Of a stretch of 64,000 bases of DNA, positions 16,836 to 27,452 are shown piece after piece (the first letter of the stretch is position 1; every line of letters starts with the position of its first letter). The translations under genes were made by a program, and so were the position numbers. The notes under the pieces are model-generated. The model was not told where the DNA came from. It saw only the letters and a list, made by a program, of their open reading frames with translations, and searched no databases. Source of the DNA: Escherichia phage vB_EcoM_HZ_ZJUN4; sequence record PP216085; one strand, 5' to 3'.

Positions 16836-17071
16836 TGAAATTTCGTTTGGTACAACTCACAGCAATTAGTTCTTATTCTAATGAGAACATCTCGTTTGCT
16901 GTAGAGTATAAGAAATATTTTTTCTCTAAATGGAAACAGTATTATAAGACAAATTGGGTTTGTATTGATAGACCATATAGTTGGAAATCTGATTTAGAAA
17001 AATGCCAAAAATTGCTTTCCACTCTTAAAGAACGTGGAACAACTCATATTAAAACTGTAATAGGTAAATAA
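16835..17071 (+). CDS. hypothetical protein, 78 aa
   Basis: ORF coupled to cd stop. Confidence 0.5.
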   Translation: MKFRLVQLTAISSYSNENISFAVEYKKYFFSKWKQYYKTNWVCIDRPYSWKSDLEKCQKLLSTLKERGTTHIKTVIGK

Positions 17072-17380
17072 ATGAAACTGACAACTGAACAGAAAGTAGC
17101 AATTCGTGAAATTTTGAAAACTAAATTGTCCATGGGTATTTCAAACGTGGTTTTTGAAAAGTCTGATGGTACTATTCGTACTATGAAAGGCACTCGTGAT
17201 GCTGACTTTATGCCAACTATGCAAACCGGTAAATTAACTGAATCTACTCGGAAAGAATCTACTGATATGATTCCAGTATTTGATGTTGAGCTTGGTGCAT
17301 GGCGAGGTTTTTCTATTGACAAATTGATTTCAGTTAATGGTATGAAAGTTGAGCATTTGCTCCAATTTATTGGTAAATAA
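17072..17380 (+). CDS. hypothetical protein, 102 aa
   Basis: ORF coupled to upstream ORF. Confidence 0.5.
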   Translation: MKLTTEQKVAIREILKTKLSMGISNVVFEKSDGTIRTMKGTRDADFMPTMQTGKLTESTRKESTDMIPVFDVELGAWRGFSIDKLISVNGMKVEHLLQFIGK

Positions 17381-17436
17381 ATGCTTTAAGAATTATTTGT
17401 TATTATTAATTCATCTGTTAACAAAAAGGAAAAACG

Positions 17437-17772
17437 ATGTCTGAAGTACAACAGCTACCAATTCGTGCTGTCGGTGAATATGTTATTTTAGTTTCTGAAC
17501 CTGCACAAGCCGGTGATGAAGAAGTCACAGAATCAGGACTTATCATCGGTAAACGTGTCCAAGGTGAAGTTCCTGAACTGTGTGTAGTTCACTCTGTTGG
17601 TCCTGATGTTCCTGAAGGTTTCTGCGAAGTTGGTGATTTGACTTCTCTTCCAGTTGGTCAAATTCGAAACGTTCCGCATCCTTTTGTAGCTCTGGGTCTT
17701 AAGCAGCCAAAAGAAATTAAACAAAAATTCGTTACTTGTCACTATAAAGCTATTCCATGTCTCTATAAGTGA
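17437..17772 (+). CDS. 31: gp31 co-chaperonin (GroES analogue for capsid folding), 111 aa
   Basis: [40 protein letters not shown]... matches T4 gp31. Confidence 0.93.
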
Positions 17773-17780
17773 TATAAATA
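17773..17780 (+). promoter_or_regulatory. late promoter (TATAAATA) upstream of rIII
   Basis: Exact TATAAATA on + strand directly after gene 31 stop. Confidence 0.45.
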
Positions 17781-17919
17781 ATAATATGAATTGGGTGTCG
17801 GAATAATAAGTTAACCGAACAATTCTATGTGGTAGTCTACAACTGAGAGATCTGTCGAAAGAAGATGAAATTCAGAAGAACGTGGCTACCGAGTTTTAAT
17901 CTCTAACGAGAATTTTTAA

Positions 17920-18168
17920 ATGATTAAACAATTACAACACGCTCTCGAACTGCAACGAAACGCATGGAATAATGGTCACGAAAACTATGGCGCATCTATT
18001 GATGTTGAAGCCGAAGCTCTTGAAATCCTGCGTTATTTCAAACATCTGAATCCTGCTCAAACTGCACTAGCTGCTGAGCTCCAGGAAAAAGATGAACTTA
18101 AATATGCTAAGCCTCTGGCTTCTGCTGCACGAAAAGCAGTTCGTCACTTTGTGGTAACACTGAAGTAA
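17920..18168 (+). CDS. rIII: rIII lysis-inhibition accessory protein, 82 aa
   Basis: MIKQLQHALELQRNAWNNGHENYGASIDVEAEALEILRYFKHLNPAQ... matches T4 RIII. Confidence 0.9.
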   Translation: MIKQLQHALELQRNAWNNGHENYGASIDVEAEALEILRYFKHLNPAQTALAAELQEKDELKYAKPLASAARKAVRHFVVTLK

Positions 18169-18288
18169 TTATGTTGACGAGGTTTATGGTTATCCTGTCG
18201 GTAAATATTCAAAACCTAAGTACCCCTTTGAGGGCTTTCGCAGGCAATGCCAATAAGTCCTGCATTTTCATTTAAAAGAGAATTTATA

Positions 18289-18465
18289 ATGGCAAAACAA
18301 GCTAAAGCAAAGAAAGCAGTTGAAAAGAAAGTTGGTGATTCTAAACGCGCTGGTTACAAGCGTGGGTCGAACTCTCGTATCAATCAAACTGTTGAGAAGA
18401 TCATGCGCCGAGCACGTGCGGTTCTTCGAGATGATGCTTCTCGTTTTGGTAAGCAGAAAGCATAA
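18289..18465 (+). CDS. small basic protein, 58 aa
   Basis: MAKQAKAKKAVEKKVGDSKRAGYKRGSNSR...; Lys/Arg-rich; ORF-track start at 18247 is upstream of the likely ATG. Confidence 0.5.
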   Translation: MAKQAKAKKAVEKKVGDSKRAGYKRGSNSRINQTVEKIMRRARAVLRDDASRFGKQKA

Positions 18466-18468
18466 GTT

Positions 18469-18497
18469 AAGGACTCCTTCGGGAGTCCTTTTTTATT
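18469..18497 (+). terminator. rho-independent terminator
   Basis: AAGGACTCC-TTCG-GGAGTCCTT followed by TTTTTTATTTT. Confidence 0.75.
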
Positions 18498-18517
18498 TTC
18501 CAAAGATTGCACAAAGT

Positions 18518-18548
18518 TGTTTACAGTATAGTTCCTTTGTGATAGTAT
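18518..18548 (+). promoter_or_regulatory. early sigma70-type promoter
   Basis: GTTTACA; extended -10 TGTGATAGTAT. Confidence 0.5.
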
Positions 18549-18575
18549 TATCTTACACAAACAAAGGAGAATAAA

Positions 18576-18908
18576 ATGAAAACGATTAATCTGAACGCTG
18601 CGGTTAAAGCTAAATGTTTCAATGGTGAATATAACGAAACTATGTGGTTCTTAATGGCAGTTGAAGGTGATATTATTGAAGTAGAAACAACAGAAGGTAT
18701 GGGAACAGATTTCACCTTTACAATTCAAGTTCATAATTTCTTTACTGGTTGGATTTATGAATTGAATACAGTAATCGTTGGAAAAATTGAACAAAATGAA
18801 TTAGGTGAATGGTATTATGTTACAGCCCGCCAACGTGCCGAACGCTTAATTGAGAAGATGAAAAAAGTTGGTAAACTTGACATGAAGCATTGGAAAGTAG
18901 TAAAATAA
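18576..18908 (+). CDS. hypothetical protein, 110 aa
   Basis: ORF with AAGGAG RBS. Confidence 0.55.
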   Translation: MKTINLNAAVKAKCFNGEYNETMWFLMAVEGDIIEVETTEGMGTDFTFTIQVHNFFTGWIYELNTVIVGKIEQNELGEWYYVTARQRAERLIEKMKKVGKLDMKHWKVVK

Positions 18909-18910
18909 TT

Positions 18911-18950
18911 GTTTACTTTGGTACAGGATATGATATTATATACCTGTACC
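18911..18950 (+). promoter_or_regulatory. early sigma70-type promoter
   Basis: GTTTACT; -10 region ATGATATTATAT enclosed by perfect 8-bp dyad GGTACAGG/CCTGTACC. Confidence 0.5.
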
Positions 18951-18963
18951 GCAATTAAACATC

Positions 18964-19341
18964 TTGGAGAATAAAATGAACTACATCAACTTTGAACGTA
19001 AATATGTTTCTAATGGTATTGCAGGTTCTATTGATACTATCTGCCTTTGGAAACATCAAAATGGATCAGTATGCGAAATTGAACAGTATATGACTCCTAA
19101 CTACGTTTATATGCGATTTGAAAATGGCATCACGGTTTCAATCACGAAAGAAGGTTCTTCTTTTAAAATCGCATTAGATGATGATTTCCGTCAACGCGAT
19201 TTAGGTACTCATCCTTGCTGGAATGGCGTCAATCGTAAGCTTCTGGTTAAAACTTGGATTCGTCATATTCTGAGTAACAGAGCTAAACCTGAGCATCTTG
19301 AAGCAATCTTTGATGTAGTTCTTAACGAATTTGATATTTAA
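18964..19341 (+). CDS. hypothetical protein, 125 aa
   Basis: ORF with GGAGAA RBS. Confidence 0.55.
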   Translation: MENKMNYINFERKYVSNGIAGSIDTICLWKHQNGSVCEIEQYMTPNYVYMRFENGITVSITKEGSSFKIALDDDFRQRDLGTHPCWNGVNRKLLVKTWIRHILSNRAKPEHLEAIFDVVLNEFDI

Positions 19342-19381
19342 AATAAAACAGGGGCTTCGGCCCCTTACTGAGGAAAATACT

Positions 19382-19656
19382 ATGTTTATGACTACTTATT
19401 TTGATACCCGCAAAAATTTCTGTGAAGTGGTTTTCTCTAAGGCACCTAAAGACCTTCCTGCTCATTTGCAGCCTACCAGTGAATCGATTATACAGTCTGC
19501 CCTTTAGAGTTTCGTACTGTAAATGGGCGTGATACTCTAGCTATCGCTAAACTCAATCGTGAAATTGACATTGACCCTTCAATTGCGCGTGAAATTAACA
19601 TTTCTGACATTGGTGGCGGTAATGTTAAATCGCACGGTTTTCAGATGAGGTTCTAA
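19382..19656 (+). pseudogene. small gene split over two overlapping reading frames (frameshift or pseudogene)
   Basis: ATG at 19382 with GAGGA RBS opens a 41-codon frame ending at TAG 19505-19507; the -1 frame is open from 19483 to TAA 19654-19656 with no start codon until three codons before its stop. Confidence 0.4.
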
Positions 19657-19853
19657 TGAAATTCTTTTTAGGTCAAACTGTTGAATTAAAGGGAGTCGGT
19701 ATACCTGGATTAATTTCTAAGGTTCTACCTCCATTTAAATGGAGAGACGTTCAAATAAAAGAAGCTTATATTGTTTCCTGGGTAGATGGAAATGAAGACC
19801 TTCGTATGGGTGATGAATTATCTCCTATCTATGGATTAAAGGAATTAGTATGA
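19656..19853 (+). CDS. hypothetical protein, 65 aa
   Basis: ORF coupled to the upstream frame (TAATG). Confidence 0.5.
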   Translation: MKFFLGQTVELKGVGIPGLISKVLPPFKWRDVQIKEAYIVSWVDGNEDLRMGDELSPIYGLKELV

Positions 19854-20056
19854 ATATAATTAATAAGATTTTTGGAATTCAGTACATTAAGGTCACATAT
19901 AAAGTAACATATAAAGGTCCGTATACCGATGAACATGAAGAACCGCAAGTTAAGTCTATTATATTAGAAAAGGACCCTAACTGGCCAATTGAATTTCGTC
20001 TTCCTTGCTATGGTCATTGGGCTGATGTTGAAATTATAAGTATTGAAAATGTCTGA
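19850..20056 (+). CDS. hypothetical protein, 68 aa
   Basis: ORF coupled to upstream ORF. Confidence 0.5.
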   Translation: MNIINKIFGIQYIKVTYKVTYKGPYTDEHEEPQVKSIILEKDPNWPIEFRLPCYGHWADVEIISIENV

Positions 20057-20507
20057 GCTAGAGATAAGAAGCAATTTTAGATGGCCATCATGTGCATTAA
20101 GCAATTTCGCCCAATGGCCTTTCGTTATGGATGGTATCCAATTTGGAGGTCTCGAAGGATTCCTCCAAGGATGTAAGGTGAAAAATGTTGAACGGCAAAG
20201 ACGTATATTTGGGTTATCCGGGCTTGCCGCCCAACAAGCTGGAAGGTCTTATGCTAGAGCTCAGGACCGTGGCACGTTGTTCTGGCTTGGAACTCCGTTT
20301 TCAAGATATTCCGAAGCATGGAAAGAATTATACACAAATGCATATTTTGAAGCAGCGATCCAAAACAGGGGCTTTCGTGAGGCATTACAAGCTTCGAAAG
20401 GAAAAGTTTTGAAGCACAGCATGGCTAGCGGTCTAACAAAAGATGATACAATACTAACCGAAGCTGAATTTATTGATGTGTTAAACCTATTAAGAGACTC
20501 TCTATGA
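20043..20507 (+). CDS. NADAR (YbiA-like, DUF1768) domain protein, 154 aa
   Basis: Motif block SNFAQWPFVMDGIQFGGLEGFLQGCKV resembles the E. coli YbiA core (DFSNFAAWPIKVDGKTWPTSEHYFQAQKF) from memory. Confidence 0.6.
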   Translation: MKMSELEIRSNFRWPSCALSNFAQWPFVMDGIQFGGLEGFLQGCKVKNVERQRRIFGLSGLAAQQAGRSYARAQDRGTLFWLGTPFSRYSEAWKELYTNAYFEAAIQNRGFREALQASKGKVLKHSMASGLTKDDTILTEAEFIDVLNLLRDSL

Positions 20508-21334
20508 AGCCTACTATTTTGACTGATATTGATGGAGTATGTTTAAGCTGGCAATCAGGCCTTCCTTATTTTGCTCAGAAATATAATCTTCCGTTAGAAC
20601 ATATTTTAAAAATGATCCAAGATGAGAAATTTATTTCTCCAGGTAAACTCTTTAATTGTGACGAAGAACTTGGCGTCAAGTTAATTGAAAAATACAATCG
20701 TTCAGATTTTATTCGTTACTTGTCTCCGTATAAAGATGCCCTGTGTGTAATTAACAAATTAAAAGAAGATTATAATTTTGTAGCTGTTACAGCATTGGGT
20801 GATTCTATTGACGCTCTGTTGAATCGTCAATTTAATTTGAACGCTCTTTTTCCTGGTGCCTTCTCAGAAGTAATGATGTGTGGTCATGATTCTTCAAAAG
20901 AAGAGCTGTTCAAAAAGGCAAAAGAGAAATATAACGTAATTTGTTATATTGACGATCTCGCTCATCACTGCGATCATGCGAGTGAAATATTAAATGTTCC
21001 AGTTTATTGGATGGCTCGAGGAGAGCGTGACAATATTCCAAAAACTGCGCAGCGAGTTTATACATGGAATGATGTAGAAAATAAGCTTTTTTCGCCGAAG
21101 GAAAATAAAGAAAGTTTTGATAGTGAAAAAGCTATAAAAGATTTAATTGAGAAGATGGTTAAAAACGATTCTTTTCCTTGGAACACTACCTGGAGAACGC
21201 CTGGATTAAATCCTTATAATCATCCATATCAGACACATCCGTTTCAGACATGGAACTATATTAAACCTGGTGGCATAGAGTATTTGTATAATAGACCTAC
21301 TAGTGGTGATAATATTTTTCAAGGAGCATTCTAA
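20504..21334 (+). CDS. HAD-superfamily 5'(3')-nucleotidase-like protein with C-terminal extension, 276 aa
   Basis: N-terminal HAD motif I ILTDIDGV and downstream YIDD motif; C-terminal about 90 aa unrelated. Confidence 0.55.
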   Translation: MKPTILTDIDGVCLSWQSGLPYFAQKYNLPLEHILKMIQDEKFISPGKLFNCDEELGVKLIEKYNRSDFIRYLSPYKDALCVINKLKEDYNFVAVTALGDSIDALLNRQFNLNALFPGAFSEVMMCGHDSSKEELFKKAKEKYNVICYIDDLAHHCDHASEILNVPVYWMARGERDNIPKTAQRVYTWNDVENKLFSPKENKESFDSEKAIKDLIEKMVKNDSFPWNTTWRTPGLNPYNHPYQTHPFQTWNYIKPGGIEYLYNRPTSGDNIFQGAF

Positions 21335-21600
21335 TGTTTGTTGTTCATACTATTTATGAAAATGAAGGTAATACTACACGTGATTACGGTCACGTAAATC
21401 AATTTTTTAGATGCAATCCAGAATTCCGTGCTCAAAAAGATGAACGAATTTTTAAAAAATGTGTAGAACAAGGTTTCATTTACGTCAAGCACTGGATGCA
21501 AGGAAATAAAGTTAGAACTACATATCATAAGTCTTTGCCTGAGCTTAATGATGAATTGATTTATAATAGAGATGTAAATCAAACTCTGAAGGATGAATAA
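21334..21600 (+). CDS. hypothetical protein, 88 aa
   Basis: ORF coupled on both sides (ATGTTTG / TAATG). Confidence 0.5.
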   Translation: MFVVHTIYENEGNTTRDYGHVNQFFRCNPEFRAQKDERIFKKCVEQGFIYVKHWMQGNKVRTTYHKSLPELNDELIYNRDVNQTLKDE

Positions 21601-23060
21601 TGATTCTTAAAATTCTGAATGAAATAGCATCTATTGGTTCAACTAAGCAGAAGCAAGCAATTCTTGAAAAGAATAAAGATAATGAATTGCTTAAACGAGT
21701 ATATCGTCTGACTTATTCTCGTGGGTTACAGTATTATATCAAGAAATGGCCTAAACCTGGTATTGCTACCCAGAGTTTTGGAATGCTGACTATTACCGAT
21801 ATGCTTGACTTCATTGAATTCACGTTAGCTACTCGGAAATTGACTGGAAATGCTGCAATTGAGGAATTAACTGGATATATCACCGATGGTAAAAAGGATG
21901 ATGTTGAAGTTTTGCGTCGAGTTATGATGCGAGACCTTGAATGCGGTGCTTCAGTATCTATTGCAAACAAAGTTTGGCCAGGTTTAATTCCTGAACAACC
22001 TCAAATGCTGGCAAGTTCTTATGATGAAAAAGGCATTAGTAAGAATATCAAGTTTCCAGCCTTTGCGCAGTTAAAAGCAGATGGAGCTCGGTGTTTTGCT
22101 GAAGTCCGAGGCGATGAATTAGATGATGTTCGTCTTTTATCACGAGCTGGTAATGAATATCTAGGATTAGATCTTCTTAAGGAAGAGTTAATCAAAATGA
22201 CTGCTGAAGCCCGCCAGATTCATCCAGAAGGTGTGTTAATTGATGGCGAATTGGTATACCATGAGCAAGTTGAAAAGGAACCAGAAGGCCTAGATTTTCT
22301 TTTTGATGCTCCTGAAATCAGTAAAGCTAAAGAGTTTGCCGAAGTAGCTGAATCTCGTACTGCTTCTAATGGAATCGCCAATAAATCTTTAAAGGGAACT
22401 ATTTCAGAAAAAGAAGCCCAATGCATGAAGTTTCAGGTCTGGGATTATGTTCCGTTAGTAGAAATATACGGTCTTCCGGCGTTTCGTTTAAAATATGATG
22501 TACGTTTTTCTAAACTAGAACAAATGACATCAGGATATGATAAAGTAATTTTAATTGAAAACCAGGTAGTAAATAACCTAGATGAAGCTAAGGTAATTTA
22601 TAAAAAATATATTGACCAGGGTCTTGAAGGTATTATTCTCAAAAATACCGATGGATTGTGGGAAAATGCTCGTTCAAAAAATCTCTATAAATTTAAAGAA
22701 GTAATTGATGTTGATTTAAAAATTGTAGGAATTTATCCTCACCGTAAAGACCCTACTAAAGCGGGTGGATTTATTCTTGAATCAGAGTGTGGAAAAATTA
22801 AAGTAAATGCAGGTTCAGGCTTAAAAGATAAAGCCGGTGTAAAATCACATGAACTTGACCGTACTCGCATTATGGAAAACCAAAATTATTATATTGGAAA
22901 AATTCTAGAGTGCGAATGCAACGGTTGGTTAAAATCTGATGGCCGCACTGATTACGTTAAATTATTTCTTCCGATTGCGATTCGTTTGCGTGAAGATAAA
23001 ACTAAAGCTAATACATTCGAGGATGTATTTGGTGATTTTCATGAGGTAACTGGTCTATGA
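21600..23060 (+). CDS. 30: ATP-dependent DNA ligase, 486 aa
   Basis: MILKILNEIASIGSTKQKQAILEKNKDNELLKRVYRLTY...; adenylation lysine motif region KADGAR; matches T4 DNA ligase. Confidence 0.96.
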   Translation: MILKILNEIASIGSTKQKQAILEKNKDNELLKRVYRLTYSRGLQYYIKKWPKPGIATQSFGMLTITDMLDFIEFTLATRKLTGNAAIEELTGYITDGKKDDVEVLRRVMMRDLECGASVSIANKVWPGLIPEQPQMLASSYDEKGISKNIKFPAFAQLKADGARCFAEVRGDELDDVRLLSRAGNEYLGLDLLKEELIKMTAEARQIHPEGVLIDGELVYHEQVEKEPEGLDFLFDAPEISKAKEFAEVAESRTASNGIANKSLKGTISEKEAQCMKFQVWDYVPLVEIYGLPAFRLKYDVRFSKLEQMTSGYDKVILIENQVVNNLDEAKVIYKKYIDQGLEGIILKNTDGLWENARSKNLYKFKEVIDVDLKIVGIYPHRKDPTKAGGFILESECGKIKVNAGSGLKDKAGVKSHELDRTRIMENQNYYIGKILECECNGWLKSDGRTDYVKLFLPIAIRLREDKTKANTFEDVFGDFHEVTGL

Positions 23061-23245
23061 AAGCTTACTTAGAAACAATTGTCGTGGCTCAAAAAGAAGG
23101 TGGAGATGTTTCTACTTCTGTATCACAAATCGTTCTTGAATTTGTAGATGCATATGCTTATAATAAATTTACAGAAACATTTGATGCCTATGAAAAAGGG
23201 CCAAAGTTTGAAATATACCGTACTCTCTTACCATTAGATTATTAA
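23057..23245 (+). CDS. hypothetical protein, 62 aa
   Basis: ORF coupled to ligase stop. Confidence 0.45.
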   Translation: MKAYLETIVVAQKEGGDVSTSVSQIVLEFVDAYAYNKFTETFDAYEKGPKFEIYRTLLPLDY

Positions 23246-23266
23246 AGGCCTTCGGGCCTTTAATTT
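23244..23266 (+). terminator. rho-independent terminator after ligase operon
   Basis: AAAGGCC-TTCG-GGCCTTT followed by AATTTTA. Confidence 0.6.
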
Positions 23267-23274
23267 TATAAATA
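23267..23274 (+). promoter_or_regulatory. late promoter (TATAAATA) for alt
   Basis: Exact TATAAATA 23 nt upstream of alt ATG. Confidence 0.6.
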
Positions 23275-23297
23275 GAATAAACACTAGAGAGGATATG

Positions 23298-25391
23298 ATG
23301 GAACTCATTACAGAATTATTTGACGAAGATACTACTCTTCCGATTACAAACTTAAATCCAAAGAAGAAAATACCGCAAATTTTTTCAGTTCATGTTGATG
23401 ACGCAATTGAACAACCAGGCTTTCGTTTATGTACCTATACATCTGGAGGTGATACTAACCGTGATCTAAAGATGGGCGATAAAATGATGCACATTGTTCC
23501 TTTTACATTAACTGCTAAAGGTTCAATTGCTAAATTGAAAGGTCTCGGTCCAAGCCCAATTAATTACATCAATTCAGTTTTTACTGTTGCGATGCAAACG
23601 ATGCGTCAGTATAAAATTGATGCCTGCATGCTTCGTATTCTTAAGTCTAAAACTGCCGGTCAAGCTCGACAAATTCAAGTTATTGCTGATAGACTTATCC
23701 GTAGTCGTTCGGGTGGCAGATACGTCCTTCTTAAGGAACTCTGGGATTACGATAAAAAGTATGCATATATTCTTATACATCGCAAAAATGTATCACTAGA
23801 AGACATTCCAGGAGTTCCAGAAATTAGTACCGAGCTCTTTACTAAAGTTGAATCGAAGGTCGGCGATGTTTATATCAATAAAGATACTGGAGCTCAAGTA
23901 ACTAAAAATGAGGCAATTGCAGCATCTATTGCGCAAGAAAATGATAAACGTTCTGACCAAGCTGTAATCGTTAAAGTTAAAATTTCCCGTAGAGCAATTG
24001 CACAAAGTCAGTCATTAGAATCTTCTAGATTTGAAAGTGAATTATTCCAGAAATATGAATCTACCGCAGCTAATTTCAATAAACCTGCTACAGCTCCTTT
24101 AATTCCCGAAGCAGAAGAAATGAAGCTTGGAATTAATTCATTAGCTTCTAAAACTAAGGCAGCAAAAATTATTGCCGAAGGAACCGCAGATGAACTTCAC
24201 TATGACTATAAATTCTTTTCAAAAAGTGAGGTTAATGAAGTTTCTGAAAAAATTAAAGACGTAATTTTTAACGCGATCAAAAATGAACCAACTACTTCAA
24301 TAAAATGTTTAGAGAAGTATGCAGCAGCTATTAATAAATTCTTTGAAGAATATAAAGATACTTGGCTTGATAAACATAATAAAACTCGTAAAGGGCAGTC
24401 AGATGAAGTCTGGGAAGAAATAACTAAAAATTCCTGGAACGCAGCAAAAACTAAATTCCTCAAACGAATGATTTATAGCTTTTCTGGAATTGGTGCAGGT
24501 CCAATGATTGATATTACTATTGCCCGTGATGGTTCTAAATATACTCCATCGCAAAAGCGCGGCATTAGAGAGTATTGTGGATCAGGATATACTGACATCA
24601 ATAATCTTCTTTTAGGCCGCTACAATCCAGAACGATATGATGTAATGAGTGAAAAAGAAATTGAATCTGCGATAAATAATTTAGATTCAGCTTTTGAAAA
24701 TGGTGACCGTATACCAGAAGGCATTACAGTTTATCGTGCTCAAAGTATGACTGCTCCTATATACGAAGCGCTAGTTAAAAATAAAGTGTTCTATTTCAGA
24801 AATTTTGTATCTACTTCTTTAACTCCTATCATTTTTGGACGTTTTGGAATTACACATGCTGGTATCGGTCTTTTAGAACCAGAAGCTCGTAATGAATTAA
24901 CAGTTGATAAAAATGAAGAAGGAATAACTATTAATCCAAACGAAATAAGAGCGTATAAAGAAAATCCTGAATACGTTAAAGTTCAAATAGGATGGGCAAT
25001 TGATGGAGCTCATAAAGTTAATGTTGTATATCCAGGAAGTCTCGGAATAGCAACAGAAGCTGAAGTTATTCTACCACGCGGATTGATGGTCAAAGTTAAT
25101 AAAATAACTGATGCTTCTAATAATGACGGAACAACATCTAATAATACAAAACTCATTCAAGCTGAAGTTATGACTACGGAAGAACTCACCGAATCGGTAA
25201 TTTATGACGGTGACCGTCTAATGGAAACGGGTGAAGTAGTTGCAATGACAGATGATATTGAAATAGAAGACAGAGTTGACTTTGCATCATTTGTTTCATC
25301 AAATGTTAAACAGAAAGCAGAATCATCTCTCGGAATTATTGCGTCTTGCATAGATATTACAAACATGCCTTACAAGTTCGTTCAAGGATAA
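23298..25391 (+). CDS. alt: Alt ADP-ribosyltransferase (capsid-packaged, injected), 697 aa
   Basis: MELITELFDEDTTLPITNLNPKKKIPQIFSVHVDDAIEQPGFRLCTYTSGGDTNRDLKMGDKMMHIV... matches T4 Alt; C-terminal ART triad elements YRAQ, FVSTSL, EAEVILPRG. Confidence 0.93.
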   Translation: MELITELFDEDTTLPITNLNPKKKIPQIFSVHVDDAIEQPGFRLCTYTSGGDTNRDLKMGDKMMHIVPFTLTAKGSIAKLKGLGPSPINYINSVFTVAMQTMRQYKIDACMLRILKSKTAGQARQIQVIADRLIRSRSGGRYVLLKELWDYDKKYAYILIHRKNVSLEDIPGVPEISTELFTKVESKVGDVYINKDTGAQVTKNEAIAASIAQENDKRSDQAVIVKVKISRRAIAQSQSLESSRFESELFQKYESTAANFNKPATAPLIPEAEEMKLGINSLASKTKAAKIIAEGTADELHYDYKFFSKSEVNEVSEKIKDVIFNAIKNEPTTSIKCLEKYAAAINKFFEEYKDTWLDKHNKTRKGQSDEVWEEITKNSWNAAKTKFLKRMIYSFSGIGAGPMIDITIARDGSKYTPSQKRGIREYCGSGYTDINNLLLGRYNPERYDVMSEKEIESAINNLDSAFENGDRIPEGITVYRAQSMTAPIYEALVKNKVFYFRNFVSTSLTPIIFGRFGITHAGIGLLEPEARNELTVDKNEEGITINPNEIRAYKENPEYVKVQIGWAIDGAHKVNVVYPGSLGIATEAEVILPRGLMVKVNKITDASNNDGTTSNNTKLIQAEVMTTEELTESVIYDGDRLMETGEVVAMTDDIEIEDRVDFASFVSSNVKQKAESSLGIIASCIDITNMPYKFVQG

Positions 25392-25394
25392 ATC

Positions 25395-27452
25395 ATGGAA
25401 CTTATTACAGAATTATTTGACGGCGCTTCGGCGCCGGTTGTTAACTTAAATCCTAAGCATAAAATACCTCAAATTTTTGCTATTCAAGCAGGTGAAGAAA
25501 GCGTGCTTCCTGGATTTAGATTTTGTACATACACCTCTGGCGGTGATACAAACAAAAACGTTAAGCCAGGCGATAAAATGATGCATATCGTAATGATAGG
25601 TGTTAATGAGAAACTATCATTAGTTAAACTTAAAAACTTGGGTGGAAATCCAATTGGTGTCATTAATGCGGTTTTTGATACTGCTCTTCAAACAATGAAA
25701 CAGTATAAAATTGACGCATGCCTATTCCGCGTACTAAAGAGTAAAACAAACGGTGCAGCTCGTCAAATGCAAGTTATTGCCGACCGTTTAGTACGTACTA
25801 AAGGAGCAGGTCGATATGTTCTTTTAAAAGAAATCTGGGACTATGATAAGAAATATGCATATATTATGGTTTACCGTAAAAATGCCAATTTAGAAGACAT
25901 TCCAGGTGTACCTCCTATTTCAACTGAGTTATTCACAAAGGTTGAATCAAAGGTTGGTGATGTTTATGTAGATGTTAAAACAGGTAATGCTGTTCCTAAA
26001 GCTGTTGCTGTTGCTGCTTCTATTGCTTTAGAAAATGATAAGCGCACAGATCAAGCTGTTATTCAGAAAACTAAAATTAGTCGTCGATTAGCAGCACAAG
26101 CTCAATATTCTACTGTCGATGCTTCGCTTCAGGGTGATAGCTTCGCTGCTAAGAAATACCAAGAGTTTGAATCTAAAGTTCCGGTATATAAAGCAGAAGG
26201 ACCAATGAACTCCGGCGTTATTCAGGTTGGTTCAAACTTCAGCAAAGGAGCTATCGGTGGTATGAGAAGTGCTTCTCGTTTTAAATCTAATGATTATGAA
26301 CTAGAAAGCTTCCGAAATCATATTGCATTGGCTCATGCACGTTTACGTGATCCATCTATCAAGTTACAGAGCGATATAACATATCAAGGTTCTCAAGAAT
26401 ATTTAAAGAATAAAGAATTTTTTGATTATAAAACTGATAAAATTTTAAGCGATCTTGCTGACATTAATATTTCTAATAGCTTTGATGTTATTAAGAAAAT
26501 TGTCAATGATTTAGTTAAAGGTTCTAAAGCCACGCCAGATGAAAAGGTAGCTATTGTTCAATTTGTCATGAATGGCATTTATAAATTGATTAATGAGTCT
26601 GCTTCTCAAGCGTATGAATATGCAAGTACTGAAGTACCCCCAAAAGGATTAACTCGGGCTGAGTCTGATGTAATTGAAGATTATTGCGCAGATTCATATG
26701 TTGAAATGAACTCGTTCCTTTTAGGTAAACCAGATTCTACTCGTGAAGAATATATGGAACGAGCTATTAAACACATCGAGACAATGGATTCTGCCTTTGC
26801 CAAAGGATCAGTTCTTCCTCCAGGAACTACGCTTTACCGTGGACAAGAAGTTACCTTTAAAACTTTACGTCATAATATTGAAAATAAAATGTTCTATTTC
26901 AAGAACTTCGTATCCACATCGCTTAAACCAAATATCTTCGGTGAGTATGGTAAAAACTATATGGCTCTAGATGATTCTGGTGCAGTATTTTCTGGTGAAG
27001 GAGAAGGTTCAGTTGATGCTGAAGATTTAATGCATATGGGTAGTCACTCTGCTTATGCGAATGAAGATGCTGAAACTAGCGTAGGTATGGTAATTAAAGG
27101 GGCTGAGCGAATTAAAGTTATCGTTCCAGGTCATTTATCAGGATTTCCATCAGAAGCTGAAGTTATTTTACCACGTGGAATTTTGCTGAAGATTAATAAA
27201 GTGAGTACGTACATGATGAAAGAAACTGCTTATAACAAGTATCTAATCGAAGGCACAATCGTTCCTCCTTCTGAACAATTAGAAGAATCGGTATATGATG
27301 GCGATCATCTAATGGAAACTGGTGAAGTTCGTCCAATGGTTGGATTTAATCAATTCCTTGTAGAAGAATCAAAAGAAGAGGAAAACGAAGTTTCTCAAAT
27401 CTTGGCTTCTTTGGTTAACATCAATGAAATGTCTAAAAAGTTCAAGATGTAG
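25395..27452 (+). CDS. second Alt-like ADP-ribosyltransferase paralog, 685 aa
   Basis: Same MELITELFD leader and conserved N-terminal/central block as alt, divergent middle region, retains ART triad elements (YRGQ, FVSTSL, EAEVILPRG); AAGGA RBS 6 nt upstream. Confidence 0.85.
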   Translation: MELITELFDGASAPVVNLNPKHKIPQIFAIQAGEESVLPGFRFCTYTSGGDTNKNVKPGDKMMHIVMIGVNEKLSLVKLKNLGGNPIGVINAVFDTALQTMKQYKIDACLFRVLKSKTNGAARQMQVIADRLVRTKGAGRYVLLKEIWDYDKKYAYIMVYRKNANLEDIPGVPPISTELFTKVESKVGDVYVDVKTGNAVPKAVAVAASIALENDKRTDQAVIQKTKISRRLAAQAQYSTVDASLQGDSFAAKKYQEFESKVPVYKAEGPMNSGVIQVGSNFSKGAIGGMRSASRFKSNDYELESFRNHIALAHARLRDPSIKLQSDITYQGSQEYLKNKEFFDYKTDKILSDLADINISNSFDVIKKIVNDLVKGSKATPDEKVAIVQFVMNGIYKLINESASQAYEYASTEVPPKGLTRAESDVIEDYCADSYVEMNSFLLGKPDSTREEYMERAIKHIETMDSAFAKGSVLPPGTTLYRGQEVTFKTLRHNIENKMFYFKNFVSTSLKPNIFGEYGKNYMALDDSGAVFSGEGEGSVDAEDLMHMGSHSAYANEDAETSVGMVIKGAERIKVIVPGHLSGFPSEAEVILPRGILLKINKVSTYMMKETAYNKYLIEGTIVPPSEQLEESVYDGDHLMETGEVRPMVGFNQFLVEESKEEENEVSQILASLVNINEMSKKFKM

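What the first reader, a model, noticed from the sequence alone, without database searches (positions are those of the whole stretch)
20043..20507. NADAR (YbiA-like) domain ORF in the early accessory cluster
The 154-aa ORF contains SNFAQWPFVMDGIQFGGLEGFLQGCKV, closely resembling the core of the NADAR/DUF1768 family (E. coli YbiA: DFSNFAAWPIKVDGKTWPTSEHYFQAQKF). NADAR proteins have been reported to hydrolyse ADP-ribose from guanine bases and so reverse DarT-type DNA ADP-ribosylation. Within a phage that also injects Alt-type ADP-ribosyltransferases, this ORF is a candidate counter-defence enzyme against ADP-ribosylating toxin systems, or a regulator of the phage's own ADP-ribosylation.
Basis: partly seen in the sequence, partly recalled or inferred. 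Interest (0 to 1): 0.55.

Follow-up and report, generated by a model that had tools for sequence, protein, structure and literature searches.

The report
Phage T4 AdfN (gp30.3) NADAR orthologue
This gene is the intact counterpart of phage T4 gene 30.3 (AdfN), an enzyme already shown to strip ADP-ribose off phage DNA and so defeat the bacterial DarTG1 defence.

Summary
The ORF is real. Its likely start is the ATG at 20049 (152 aa), not the TTG at 20043. The window is a T4-like phage (Tequatrovirus). The protein is 96% identical to T4 gp30.3 and lies in the same position: 30.4, 30.3, 30.2, 30.1, DNA ligase, alt.

It matches Pfam PF08010 (Phage_30_3) at E=3e-68 but does not match Pfam NADAR (PF08719) directly. 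The link to NADAR is nevertheless solid:
- 20 of 53 family members hit PF08719.
- A family profile finds E. coli YbiA as the only credible PDB hit (E=0.0017; hhalign 94%, E=1e-7).

The catalytic Glu36 and Lys43, the phage-specific His123 and the C-terminal helix that RB69 lacks are all present.

T4 gp30.3 was named AdfN by Johannesman et al., Nat Commun 2025. It removes ADP-ribose from guanine in DNA and is necessary and sufficient for resistance to DarTG1. In-vitro work (Toxins 2024) and a T4 transposon screen (HIDEN-SEQ, 2025) agree.

One published question stays open: which T-even factor AdfN needs for full activity.

The parts
20049..20507 (+). adfN (T4 gene 30.3 orthologue): 152 codons plus a TGA stop
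   Evidence: ORF. PF08010 at E=3e-68. 96% identical, with no gaps, to T4 gp30.3 NP_049816. AlphaFold model pLDDT 92.9 with a NADAR fold.
20049..20056 (+). ATGTCTGA: the adfN start codon overlaps the stop codon of the upstream 68-aa gene (the 30.4 orthologue)
   Evidence: Read from the sequence. The same arrangement is annotated in T4. The mechanical TTG start at 20043 would add only two residues.
20100..20108 (+). Codons for Ser18-Asn19-Phe20, the SNF motif shared with YbiA
   Evidence: Invariant in 53 family members. Aligned to the YbiA SNF motif by hmmsearch, hhalign and BLASTP.
20154..20156 (+). GAA, Glu36: catalytic glutamate, equivalent to PnNADAR E43 and E. coli C7 NADAR E88
   Evidence: Invariant. 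Aligned to the Glu of the YbiA SEHYFQ motif. In T4 AdfN the E36A change abolishes de-ADP-ribosylation in vitro and weakens rescue (PMC11825919).
20175..20177 (+). AAG, Lys43: ADP-ribose phosphate-binding lysine, equivalent to PnNADAR K50 and C7 NADAR K95
   Evidence: Conserved in at least 90% of family members. It lies seven residues after the Glu, as in PnNADAR and C7 NADAR. The K43A variant of T4 AdfN is impaired.
20415..20417 (+). CAC, His123: in the last beta-strand. This is the phage-clade replacement of the Glu (YbiA family) or Asp (DarG1 family) found at this position.
   Evidence: Invariant in 53 sequences. The model places it in strand 120-123. The hhalign register puts it opposite the Glu of YbiA LVEH; the printed alignment ends one residue earlier, so this is an extrapolation. 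The literature describes His at this position as the mark of gp30.3 NADARs.
20460..20504 (+). C-terminal alpha-helix (residues 138-152), needed for full activity
   Evidence: Helix 138-151 in the model. It is intact here. RB69 loses it through a frameshift, which I re-derived. The paper links that truncation to DarTG1 sensitivity.
20504..20507 (+). ATGA: the adfN stop overlaps the start of 30.2 (20504-21334), so the two are probably translationally coupled
   Evidence: Read from the sequence. The 30.2 orthologue belongs to PHROG 420 and begins with a HAD-type DIDGV motif. This is context only, not shown to be part of the mechanism.

Best explanation
The gene is the orthologue of phage T4 gene 30.3, named adfN (anti-DarT factor NADAR).

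Shown for T4 and inferred here: when the phage infects a cell carrying the DarTG1 toxin-antitoxin defence, the DarT1 toxin attaches ADP-ribose to guanine bases in phage DNA and blocks replication. AdfN is a small stand-alone NADAR-fold N-glycosidase. It binds the ADP-ribose moiety (Lys43 on the phosphates; Glu36 and His123 around the distal ribose) and hydrolyses the guanine-ribose bond. This restores normal DNA and allows replication. It acts as an orphan antitoxin and does not bind the toxin.

Shown here: orthology, synteny, NADAR fold, intact catalytic residues and intact C-terminal helix.

Taken from published experiments on the 96%-identical T4 protein: enzymatic activity, DarTG1 counter-defence, no activity against thymidine-modifying DarTG2, and dependence on a T-even infection context.
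For: - Orthology: 96% identity over all 152 residues to T4 gp30.3. Same gene order as T4, from 31 and rIII through 30.9-30.4, 30.3, 30.2, 30.1 and 30 to alt. 95-98% nucleotide identity to T4 across the region. PF08010 at E=3e-68.
- Sequence links: the family profile finds YbiA as the only credible PDB hit, E=0.0017. hhalign against YbiA gives probability 94.3%, E=1e-7. 20 of 53 family members hit Pfam NADAR, best E=1.5e-7.
- Residues: Glu36 and His123 are invariant and Lys43 is at least 90% conserved.
- C-terminus: full length, unlike the RB69 frameshift allele.
- Function from the literature: deleting adfN in T4 and T2 abolishes plaquing on DarTG1 cells. Ectopic AdfN rescues RB69. Purified AdfN removes ADP-ribose from DNA, and the E36A protein does not (PMC11825919). 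T4 gp30.3 hydrolyses guanosine-ADPr but not thymidine-ADPr in vitro (PMC11125620). Transposon insertions in 30.3/adfN are lost on DarTG1 hosts (10.1101/2025.11.20.689424).
Against: - No experiment was done on this allele. It differs from T4 at six positions: R49 (T4 Q), T82 (V), E89 (P), R107 (K), E111 (D) and M125 (I). None is an invariant family column, and E89 and M125 also occur in RB69.
- This protein gives no direct Pfam PF08719 hit at E<=1 and no direct PDB sequence hit.
- T4 AdfN does not neutralise DarT1 in uninfected cells and only weakly rescues T5 and Bas25. The simple picture of a free-standing antitoxin is therefore incomplete, and an unknown T-even factor or context is needed.
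Confidence: 0.9

Rival explanations
1. Besides or instead of acting on DNA, the protein degrades soluble ADP-ribose-derived molecules that host immunity makes as signals or toxins. This is the role Iyer et al. 2022 proposed for most phage NADARs.
For: [quoted passage not shown] It notes that in T4-like phages they are early genes encoded with the ADP-ribosyltransferases. The window has that arrangement: adfN lies about 2.8 kb upstream of two alt paralogues. T4 AdfN's dependence on an infection context is unexplained.
Against: The only phenotypes and activities demonstrated for T4 gp30.3 are on guanine-ADP-ribosylated DNA and DarTG1. No soluble substrate has been reported in the papers I read. 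Nothing here tests it.
Confidence: 0.06
2. It regulates the phage's own ADP-ribosylation by removing marks laid down by Alt, ModA or ModB.
For: Only proximity to the two alt paralogues in the window.
Against: I found no experiment in the papers I read that supports it. Characterised NADARs, including T4 gp30.3, cleave the guanine N-glycosidic ADP-ribose linkage in DNA and do not even cleave thymidine-ADPr. Alt is annotated as a protein-targeting RNA polymerase mono-ADP-ribosyltransferase. AdfN is dispensable on E. coli K-12, which lacks DarTG1.
Confidence: 0.02
3. It is a YbiA-type housekeeping N-glycosidase acting on riboflavin-pathway intermediates.
For: The best sequence-level PDB hit is E. 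coli YbiA, which RefSeq annotates as an N-glycosidase.
Against: The residue that defines the YbiA family, a Glu in the last strand, is His in every gp30.3 family member. Published phylogeny places the gp30.3 clade nearest the DarG1-type NADARs. The demonstrated phenotype is DarTG1 counter-defence.
Confidence: 0.01
4. This particular allele is inactive, a decayed copy like the one in RB69.
For: Truncated or fused gp30.3 fragments are common among natural phages: clusters of 83-126 aa, and the RB69 frameshift.
Against: The window ORF is full length. It has the C-terminal helix and all invariant family residues.
Confidence: 0.02

Closest known systems
Phage T4 gp30.3 = AdfN (anti-DarT factor NADAR); Pfam PF08010 Phage_30_3
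   Same: 96% identical over the same 152 residues and in the same genomic slot. Same Glu36, Lys43 and His123, and the same C-terminal helix.
   Different: Six conservative or variable-position substitutions. Activity was not tested for this allele.
DarG1, the NADAR antitoxin of DarTG1 (e.g. E. coli C7 NADAR; Geobacter lovleyi NADAR, PDB 8bat)
   Different: The window gene is an orphan with no adjacent DarT1. There are no PADLOC hits and its neighbours are 30.4 and 30.2. It lacks the DarG1 N-terminal extension (152 aa against 219 for 8bat). The last-strand catalytic residue is His, not Asp. T4 AdfN cannot replace DarG1 in uninfected cells.
E. coli YbiA (PDB 2b3w) and Phytophthora NADAR (PDB 8bau): the YbiA family of NADARs, Pfam PF08719
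   Different: Only about 17-20% identity. His replaces the family-defining Glu in the last strand. No direct PF08719 hit for this protein. Different biological role.
AdfN(Bas32) and AdfN(Bas60): NADARs of T5-like and Vequintavirinae phages
   Same: Phage-borne orphan NADARs that counter DarTG1.
   Different: They belong to other NADAR clades and were acquired independently. They neutralise DarT1 without phage infection, whereas T4-type AdfN needs a T-even context.

Membership tests
NADAR superfamily | [quoted passage not shown] | tested here: met
NADAR superfamily | Direct match of this protein to Pfam PF08719 (NADAR) | tested here: not met
   hmmscan at E<=1 returns only PF08010. phmmer against PDB sequences returns nothing. 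Pfam keeps the gp30.3 clade as a separate family.
NADAR superfamily | Family-level (profile) sequence relationship to NADAR/YbiA | tested here: met
   20 of 53 gp30.3 family members hit PF08719, best E=1.5e-7. The family HMM finds YbiA at E=0.0017 as the only credible PDB hit. hhalign gives probability 94.3%, E=1e-7.
NADAR superfamily | Catalytic Glu and phosphate-binding Lys seven residues apart (PnNADAR E43/K50; C7 NADAR E88/K95) | tested here: met
   Glu36 is invariant and Lys43 is at least 90% conserved. Both align to the YbiA E...K pair. Residue roles come from PMC11543638.
NADAR superfamily | Hydrolysis of guanine-linked ADP-ribose on DNA | not testable with these tools
   Shown for the 96%-identical T4 protein (PMC11125620; PMC11825919).
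Phage gp30.3 / AdfN(T4) clade (PF08010) | Match to PF08010 above the gathering score | tested here: met
   228.3 bits against a cut-off of 36, E=3e-68, covering profile positions 1-138 of 138.
Phage gp30.3 / AdfN(T4) clade (PF08010) | Histidine in the last beta-strand, in place of the Glu or Asp of other NADARs | tested here: met
   His123 is invariant in 53 sequences and lies in strand 120-123. The literature states this as the clade's mark.
Phage gp30.3 / AdfN(T4) clade (PF08010) | Orthologous position in the T4 30.x cluster upstream of the DNA ligase gene | tested here: met
   Window gene order compared with the T4 annotation. Collinear blastn at 95-98% identity.
Phage gp30.3 / AdfN(T4) clade (PF08010) | Intact C-terminal helix, which is lost in the inactive RB69 allele | tested here: met
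   The window protein ends ...EAEFIDVLNLLRDSL, as T4 does. RB69 stops after ...DDTILT.
Phage gp30.3 / AdfN(T4) clade (PF08010) | Protects the phage from DarTG1 in vivo | not testable with these tools
   Shown for T4 and T2 and by HIDEN-SEQ.
DarG1 antitoxin of a DarTG1 operon | Encoded next to a DarT1 ADP-ribosyltransferase toxin | tested here: not met
   The flanking genes are the 30.4 and 30.2 orthologues. Neither the protein nor 30.2 has a PADLOC hit. It is an orphan.
DarG1 antitoxin of a DarTG1 operon | N-terminal extension and a catalytic Asp in the last strand | tested here: not met
   The protein is 152 aa and its NADAR core starts at about residue 10. The last-strand residue is His123, not Asp. 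PMC11825919 notes the same differences.

The most novel reading that the evidence does not exclude
Two groups report that T4-type AdfN is active on DNA in vitro and during T-even infection, yet cannot neutralise DarT1 in uninfected cells. The authors infer an unidentified T-even potentiating factor.

The most novel reading my evidence leaves open is that this factor is the downstream gene 30.2 (20504-21334). Its start codon overlaps the adfN stop (ATGA). It begins with a HAD-phosphatase motif (DIDGV). It has almost the same spread in phage records as 30.3 (1439 against 1510 records) and sits beside it in T4, RB69, MX01 and Acinetobacter phage 133.

Against this reading:
- Krischvirus Phi1 has 30.3 directly next to the ligase gene with no 30.2 between them.
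- In Aeromonas phage PS49 the two genes are about 57 kb apart.
- The T4 transposon screen text names only adfN as conditionally essential on DarTG1.
Probability: 0.04. Interest if true: 0.5.

Novelty: already known. Interest (0 to 1): 0.12.

Why it matters
AdfN is an example of a lytic phage using an orphan antitoxin-like enzyme to undo a bacterial immune modification of its DNA. Recognising it matters for annotation: most deposited T4-like genomes still label this gene "hypothetical protein". It also helps predict whether therapeutic T4-like phages can grow on hosts carrying DarTG1. This window adds no new biology. It holds an intact allele, so the phage is predicted to resist DarTG1. The real open question lies in the published work: which T-even factor makes T4-type AdfN work only during infection.

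Tried and rejected
- Direct Pfam scan for NADAR (PF08719) on this protein: no hit at E<=1. NCBIfam and PADLOC gave no hits. Direct phmmer against PDB sequences gave no hits. These negatives reflect divergence of the gp30.3 clade, because the profile and structure tests were positive.
- Possible group of C-terminally shortened alleles (tblastn coverage 1-144). Rejected: CHD16UKE1 encodes a full-length 152-aa protein with the same C-terminus, so the short coverage is an alignment artefact.
- T4's annotated overlapping gene 30.3' (window 20185-20412, frame +1) as a conserved second product. The frame is open in the window, T4, TH40 and MX01. The start codon is missing in CHD16UKE1 and RB69 has an internal stop. 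Conservation is weak, so I did not pursue it.
- 30.2 as an obligatory partner of AdfN: not supported.
- Single-sequence AlphaFold of 30.2: unusable (pLDDT 35.9), so no fold search was run. phmmer of 30.2 against the PDB found nothing credible.
- Promoter and terminator consensus scan of 17000-25600: counts were no higher than in shuffled sequence. It is not used as evidence.

Full report
**1. Observation**

The + strand carries an ORF at 20043..20507 with the quoted peptide. The mechanical ORF starts at TTG 20043 (154 aa). The ATG at 20049 is the likely start, giving 152 aa, for three reasons:
- T4 gene 30.3 is annotated as 459 nt.
- The two proteins align end to end without gaps.
- The published catalytic residue numbers E36 and K43 then fall on Glu and Lys.

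The ATG overlaps the stop of the upstream 68-aa gene (ATGTCTGA). The TGA stop overlaps the ATG of the next gene (ATGA).

With 36% GC, only about 0.15 stop-free runs of this length are expected in all six frames of the window. The product scores 228 bits (E=3e-68) on Pfam PF08010, "Bacteriophage protein GP30.3".

**2. Context**

The window is a T4-like phage (Tequatrovirus).
- The 2.1 kb around the ORF is 98% identical to Escherichia phage vB_EcoM_JE01 and similar to about 700 phage records.
- It is collinear with T4 at 95-98% nucleotide identity.
- The gene order is that of T4 read on its minus strand: 31, rIII, 30.9 to 30.4, 30.3, 30.2, 30.1 (DUF3045), DNA ligase 30, alt.1, alt.
- The protein is 96% identical (146 of 152) to T4 gp30.3.

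**3. Is it a NADAR?**

This protein does not hit Pfam PF08719 at E<=1. It hits no PDB sequence by phmmer and no NCBIfam or PADLOC model. The relationship shows up one step further out.

I collected 96 homologues and aligned 53 full-length ones.
- Each of the 53 members was scanned on its own. Twenty hit PF08719, best E=1.5e-7. No other family beyond PF08010 was hit by more than four members.
- A profile of the alignment finds E. coli YbiA (2b3w) as the only credible hit among 177,635 PDB sequences, E=0.0017.
- hhalign of the profile against the YbiA sequence taken from E. coli K-12 gives probability 94.3%, E=1e-7 over 91 aligned columns.
- Pairwise BLASTP gives 33% identity over 57 residues.

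An AlphaFold2 model built with the alignment is confident (pLDDT 92.9, pTM 0.88).
- Foldseek returns the same three entries, followed only by noise.
- Against viral predicted structures, the hits after the gp30.3 relatives are dominated by annotated NADAR-domain proteins.

**4. Catalytic residues**

Schuller et al. 2023 (PMC11543638) define three mechanistically relevant positions:
- A Glu (PnNADAR E43, E. coli C7 E88).
- A Lys seven residues later (K50, K95).
- An acidic residue in the last strand: Glu in the YbiA family and Asp in the DarG1 family. It is replaced by His in phage NADARs.

The window protein has Glu36 and Lys43, seven residues apart, aligned to the YbiA E...K pair. His123 lies in the last beta-strand of the model. 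Glu36 and His123 are invariant and Lys43 is at least 90% conserved among the 53 family members.

The six differences from T4 are R49, T82, E89, R107, E111 and M125. All fall in variable columns.

The C-terminal helix (residues 138-151) is intact. In RB69 a frameshift removes it, which I re-derived from the RB69 sequence. That allele is the natural loss-of-function case.

**5. What it does**

This has been settled experimentally for the T4 orthologue.
- De Souza and Aravind, and later Schuller et al., placed gp30.3 among the NADARs.
- Toxins 2024 (PMC11125620) showed that the T4 protein hydrolyses guanosine-ADPr but not thymidine-ADPr on DNA in vitro.
- Johannesman et al. 2025 (PMC11825919) mapped DarTG1 resistance to 30.3 using RB69 x T2 and RB69 x T4 chimeras and renamed the gene adfN.
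- They showed that T4 and T2 lacking adfN cannot plaque on DarTG1 cells, and that ectopic AdfN rescues RB69.
- E36A, K43A and the RB69-like truncation impair AdfN, and the protein does not bind DarT1.
- Purified AdfN, but not the E36A protein, removes ADP-ribose from DNA.
- A T4 transposon screen (HIDEN-SEQ preprint) independently found 30.3/adfN conditionally essential on DarTG1.

I therefore assign the window gene as adfN. It is an orphan, antitoxin-like DNA guanine-ADP-ribosylglycohydrolase that counters DarTG1. My confidence is about 0.9. The remaining doubt is that this allele itself is untested.

**6. Rivals**

The published activity is specific to guanine-linked ADP-ribose in DNA, and the gene is dispensable on hosts without DarTG1.
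- The Iyer et al. 2022 proposal that phage NADARs mainly degrade soluble ADPr signals is not excluded as an additional role. It has no direct support for this clade.
- A YbiA-like riboflavin-pathway role is unlikely because His replaces the family-defining Glu.
- A decayed allele is excluded by the intact ORF.

**7. Comparison and membership**

The protein is a member of the NADAR superfamily: fold, profile link and catalytic residues all pass, and only the direct PF08719 hit fails. Within the superfamily it belongs to the gp30.3/AdfN(T4) clade, by its PF08010 match, the His in the last strand, its orthologous position and its intact C-terminus.

It works like DarG1 but is not a DarG1. There is no adjacent DarT1 and no N-terminal extension, and the last-strand residue is His instead of Asp. 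T4 AdfN also cannot substitute for DarG1 in uninfected cells.

**8. What remains open**

Both experimental papers report that T4-type AdfN needs a T-even infection context, and they infer an unknown potentiating factor. I looked at whether the translationally coupled neighbour 30.2 could be that factor.

In favour:
- It starts with a HAD-type DIDGV motif.
- It belongs to PHROG 420, with a weak hit to a polynucleotide kinase family (phrog_415).
- It has nearly the same spread in phage records as 30.3 (1439 against 1510 records).
- It is adjacent to 30.3 in T4, RB69, MX01 and Acinetobacter phage 133.

Against:
- It is absent between 30.3 and the ligase gene in Krischvirus Phi1.
- It is not adjacent in Aeromonas phage PS49.
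- In Vibrio phage V07 and Sinorhizobium phage phiM12 the gene sits in a different context, with no DNA ligase gene nearby. I did not test whether their neighbouring genes are 30.2 homologues.
- The HIDEN-SEQ text names only adfN for DarTG1.

I rate this possibility at about 4%. A single-sequence structure prediction of 30.2 was unusable.

**9. Verdict**

The feature is already known: published in 2023-2025 and named AdfN. Interest is low. Its practical value is in annotation, since most T4-like genomes still call this gene hypothetical, and in predicting that this phage resists DarTG1.

Noticed in passing
window 23295-25391 and 25395-27452 (+): There are two full-length Alt-type ADP-ribosyltransferase paralogues in tandem. 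The first (698 aa) is 70% identical to T4 Alt overall. Its first ~247 residues are almost identical to T4 Alt and the rest is clearly divergent, so it looks mosaic. The second (685 aa) is only 41% identical to T4 Alt and 41% to the first. T4 has only the remnants alt.-1 and alt.-2 at that position.
   Followed up: partly
window 20185-20412 (+), inside adfN in frame +1: This 75-aa ORF corresponds to T4's annotated gene 30.3' ('internal translation in a different reading frame'). It is open in the window, T4, TH40 and MX01. Its start codon is missing in phage CHD16UKE1 and RB69 has an internal stop, so conservation as a coding frame is weak.
   Followed up: partly
window 20504-21334 (+), 30.2 orthologue: A 276-aa protein of unknown function. 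Its start overlaps the adfN stop (ATGA). It begins MKPTILTDIDGV, a HAD-phosphatase motif I. It belongs to PHROG 420, with a weak hit to a polynucleotide kinase family (phrog_415). It has no Pfam, NCBIfam, PADLOC or PDB sequence hit. It occurs in 1439 phage records. The single-sequence AlphaFold model was unusable.
   Followed up: partly
homologues (e.g. P0008, P0015, P0017, P0045, P0096); L008 1501-1965: Many natural T4-like phages carry truncated or fused gp30.3 fragments (83-126 aa, some fused to other Pfam families), in addition to the known RB69 frameshift. Loss of AdfN may be recurrent. Alternatively these may be assembly or annotation errors.
   Followed up: no
BFVD hit A0A1B4XWL9 (Tenacibaculum phage pT24, 292 aa); PHROG 652 profile length 296: Some relatives carry the gp30.3-type NADAR domain as the C-terminal half of a protein about twice as long. 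The window protein matches positions 126-272 of the 296-position PHROG profile. The N-terminal partner domain was not identified.
   Followed up: no
window 18469-18490 (+) and 18877-18906 (+): A strong hairpin followed by a T-run (AAGGACTCC-TTCG-GGAGTCCTT TTTTATTTT) lies just after the 30.9-like ORF. A near-consensus sigma-70 promoter match (TTGACA-18-TAAAAT) lies ahead of the 30.7-like ORF. These could delimit the transcription unit that contains adfN. They are consensus matches only, and site counts in the region are no higher than in shuffled sequence.
   Followed up: no
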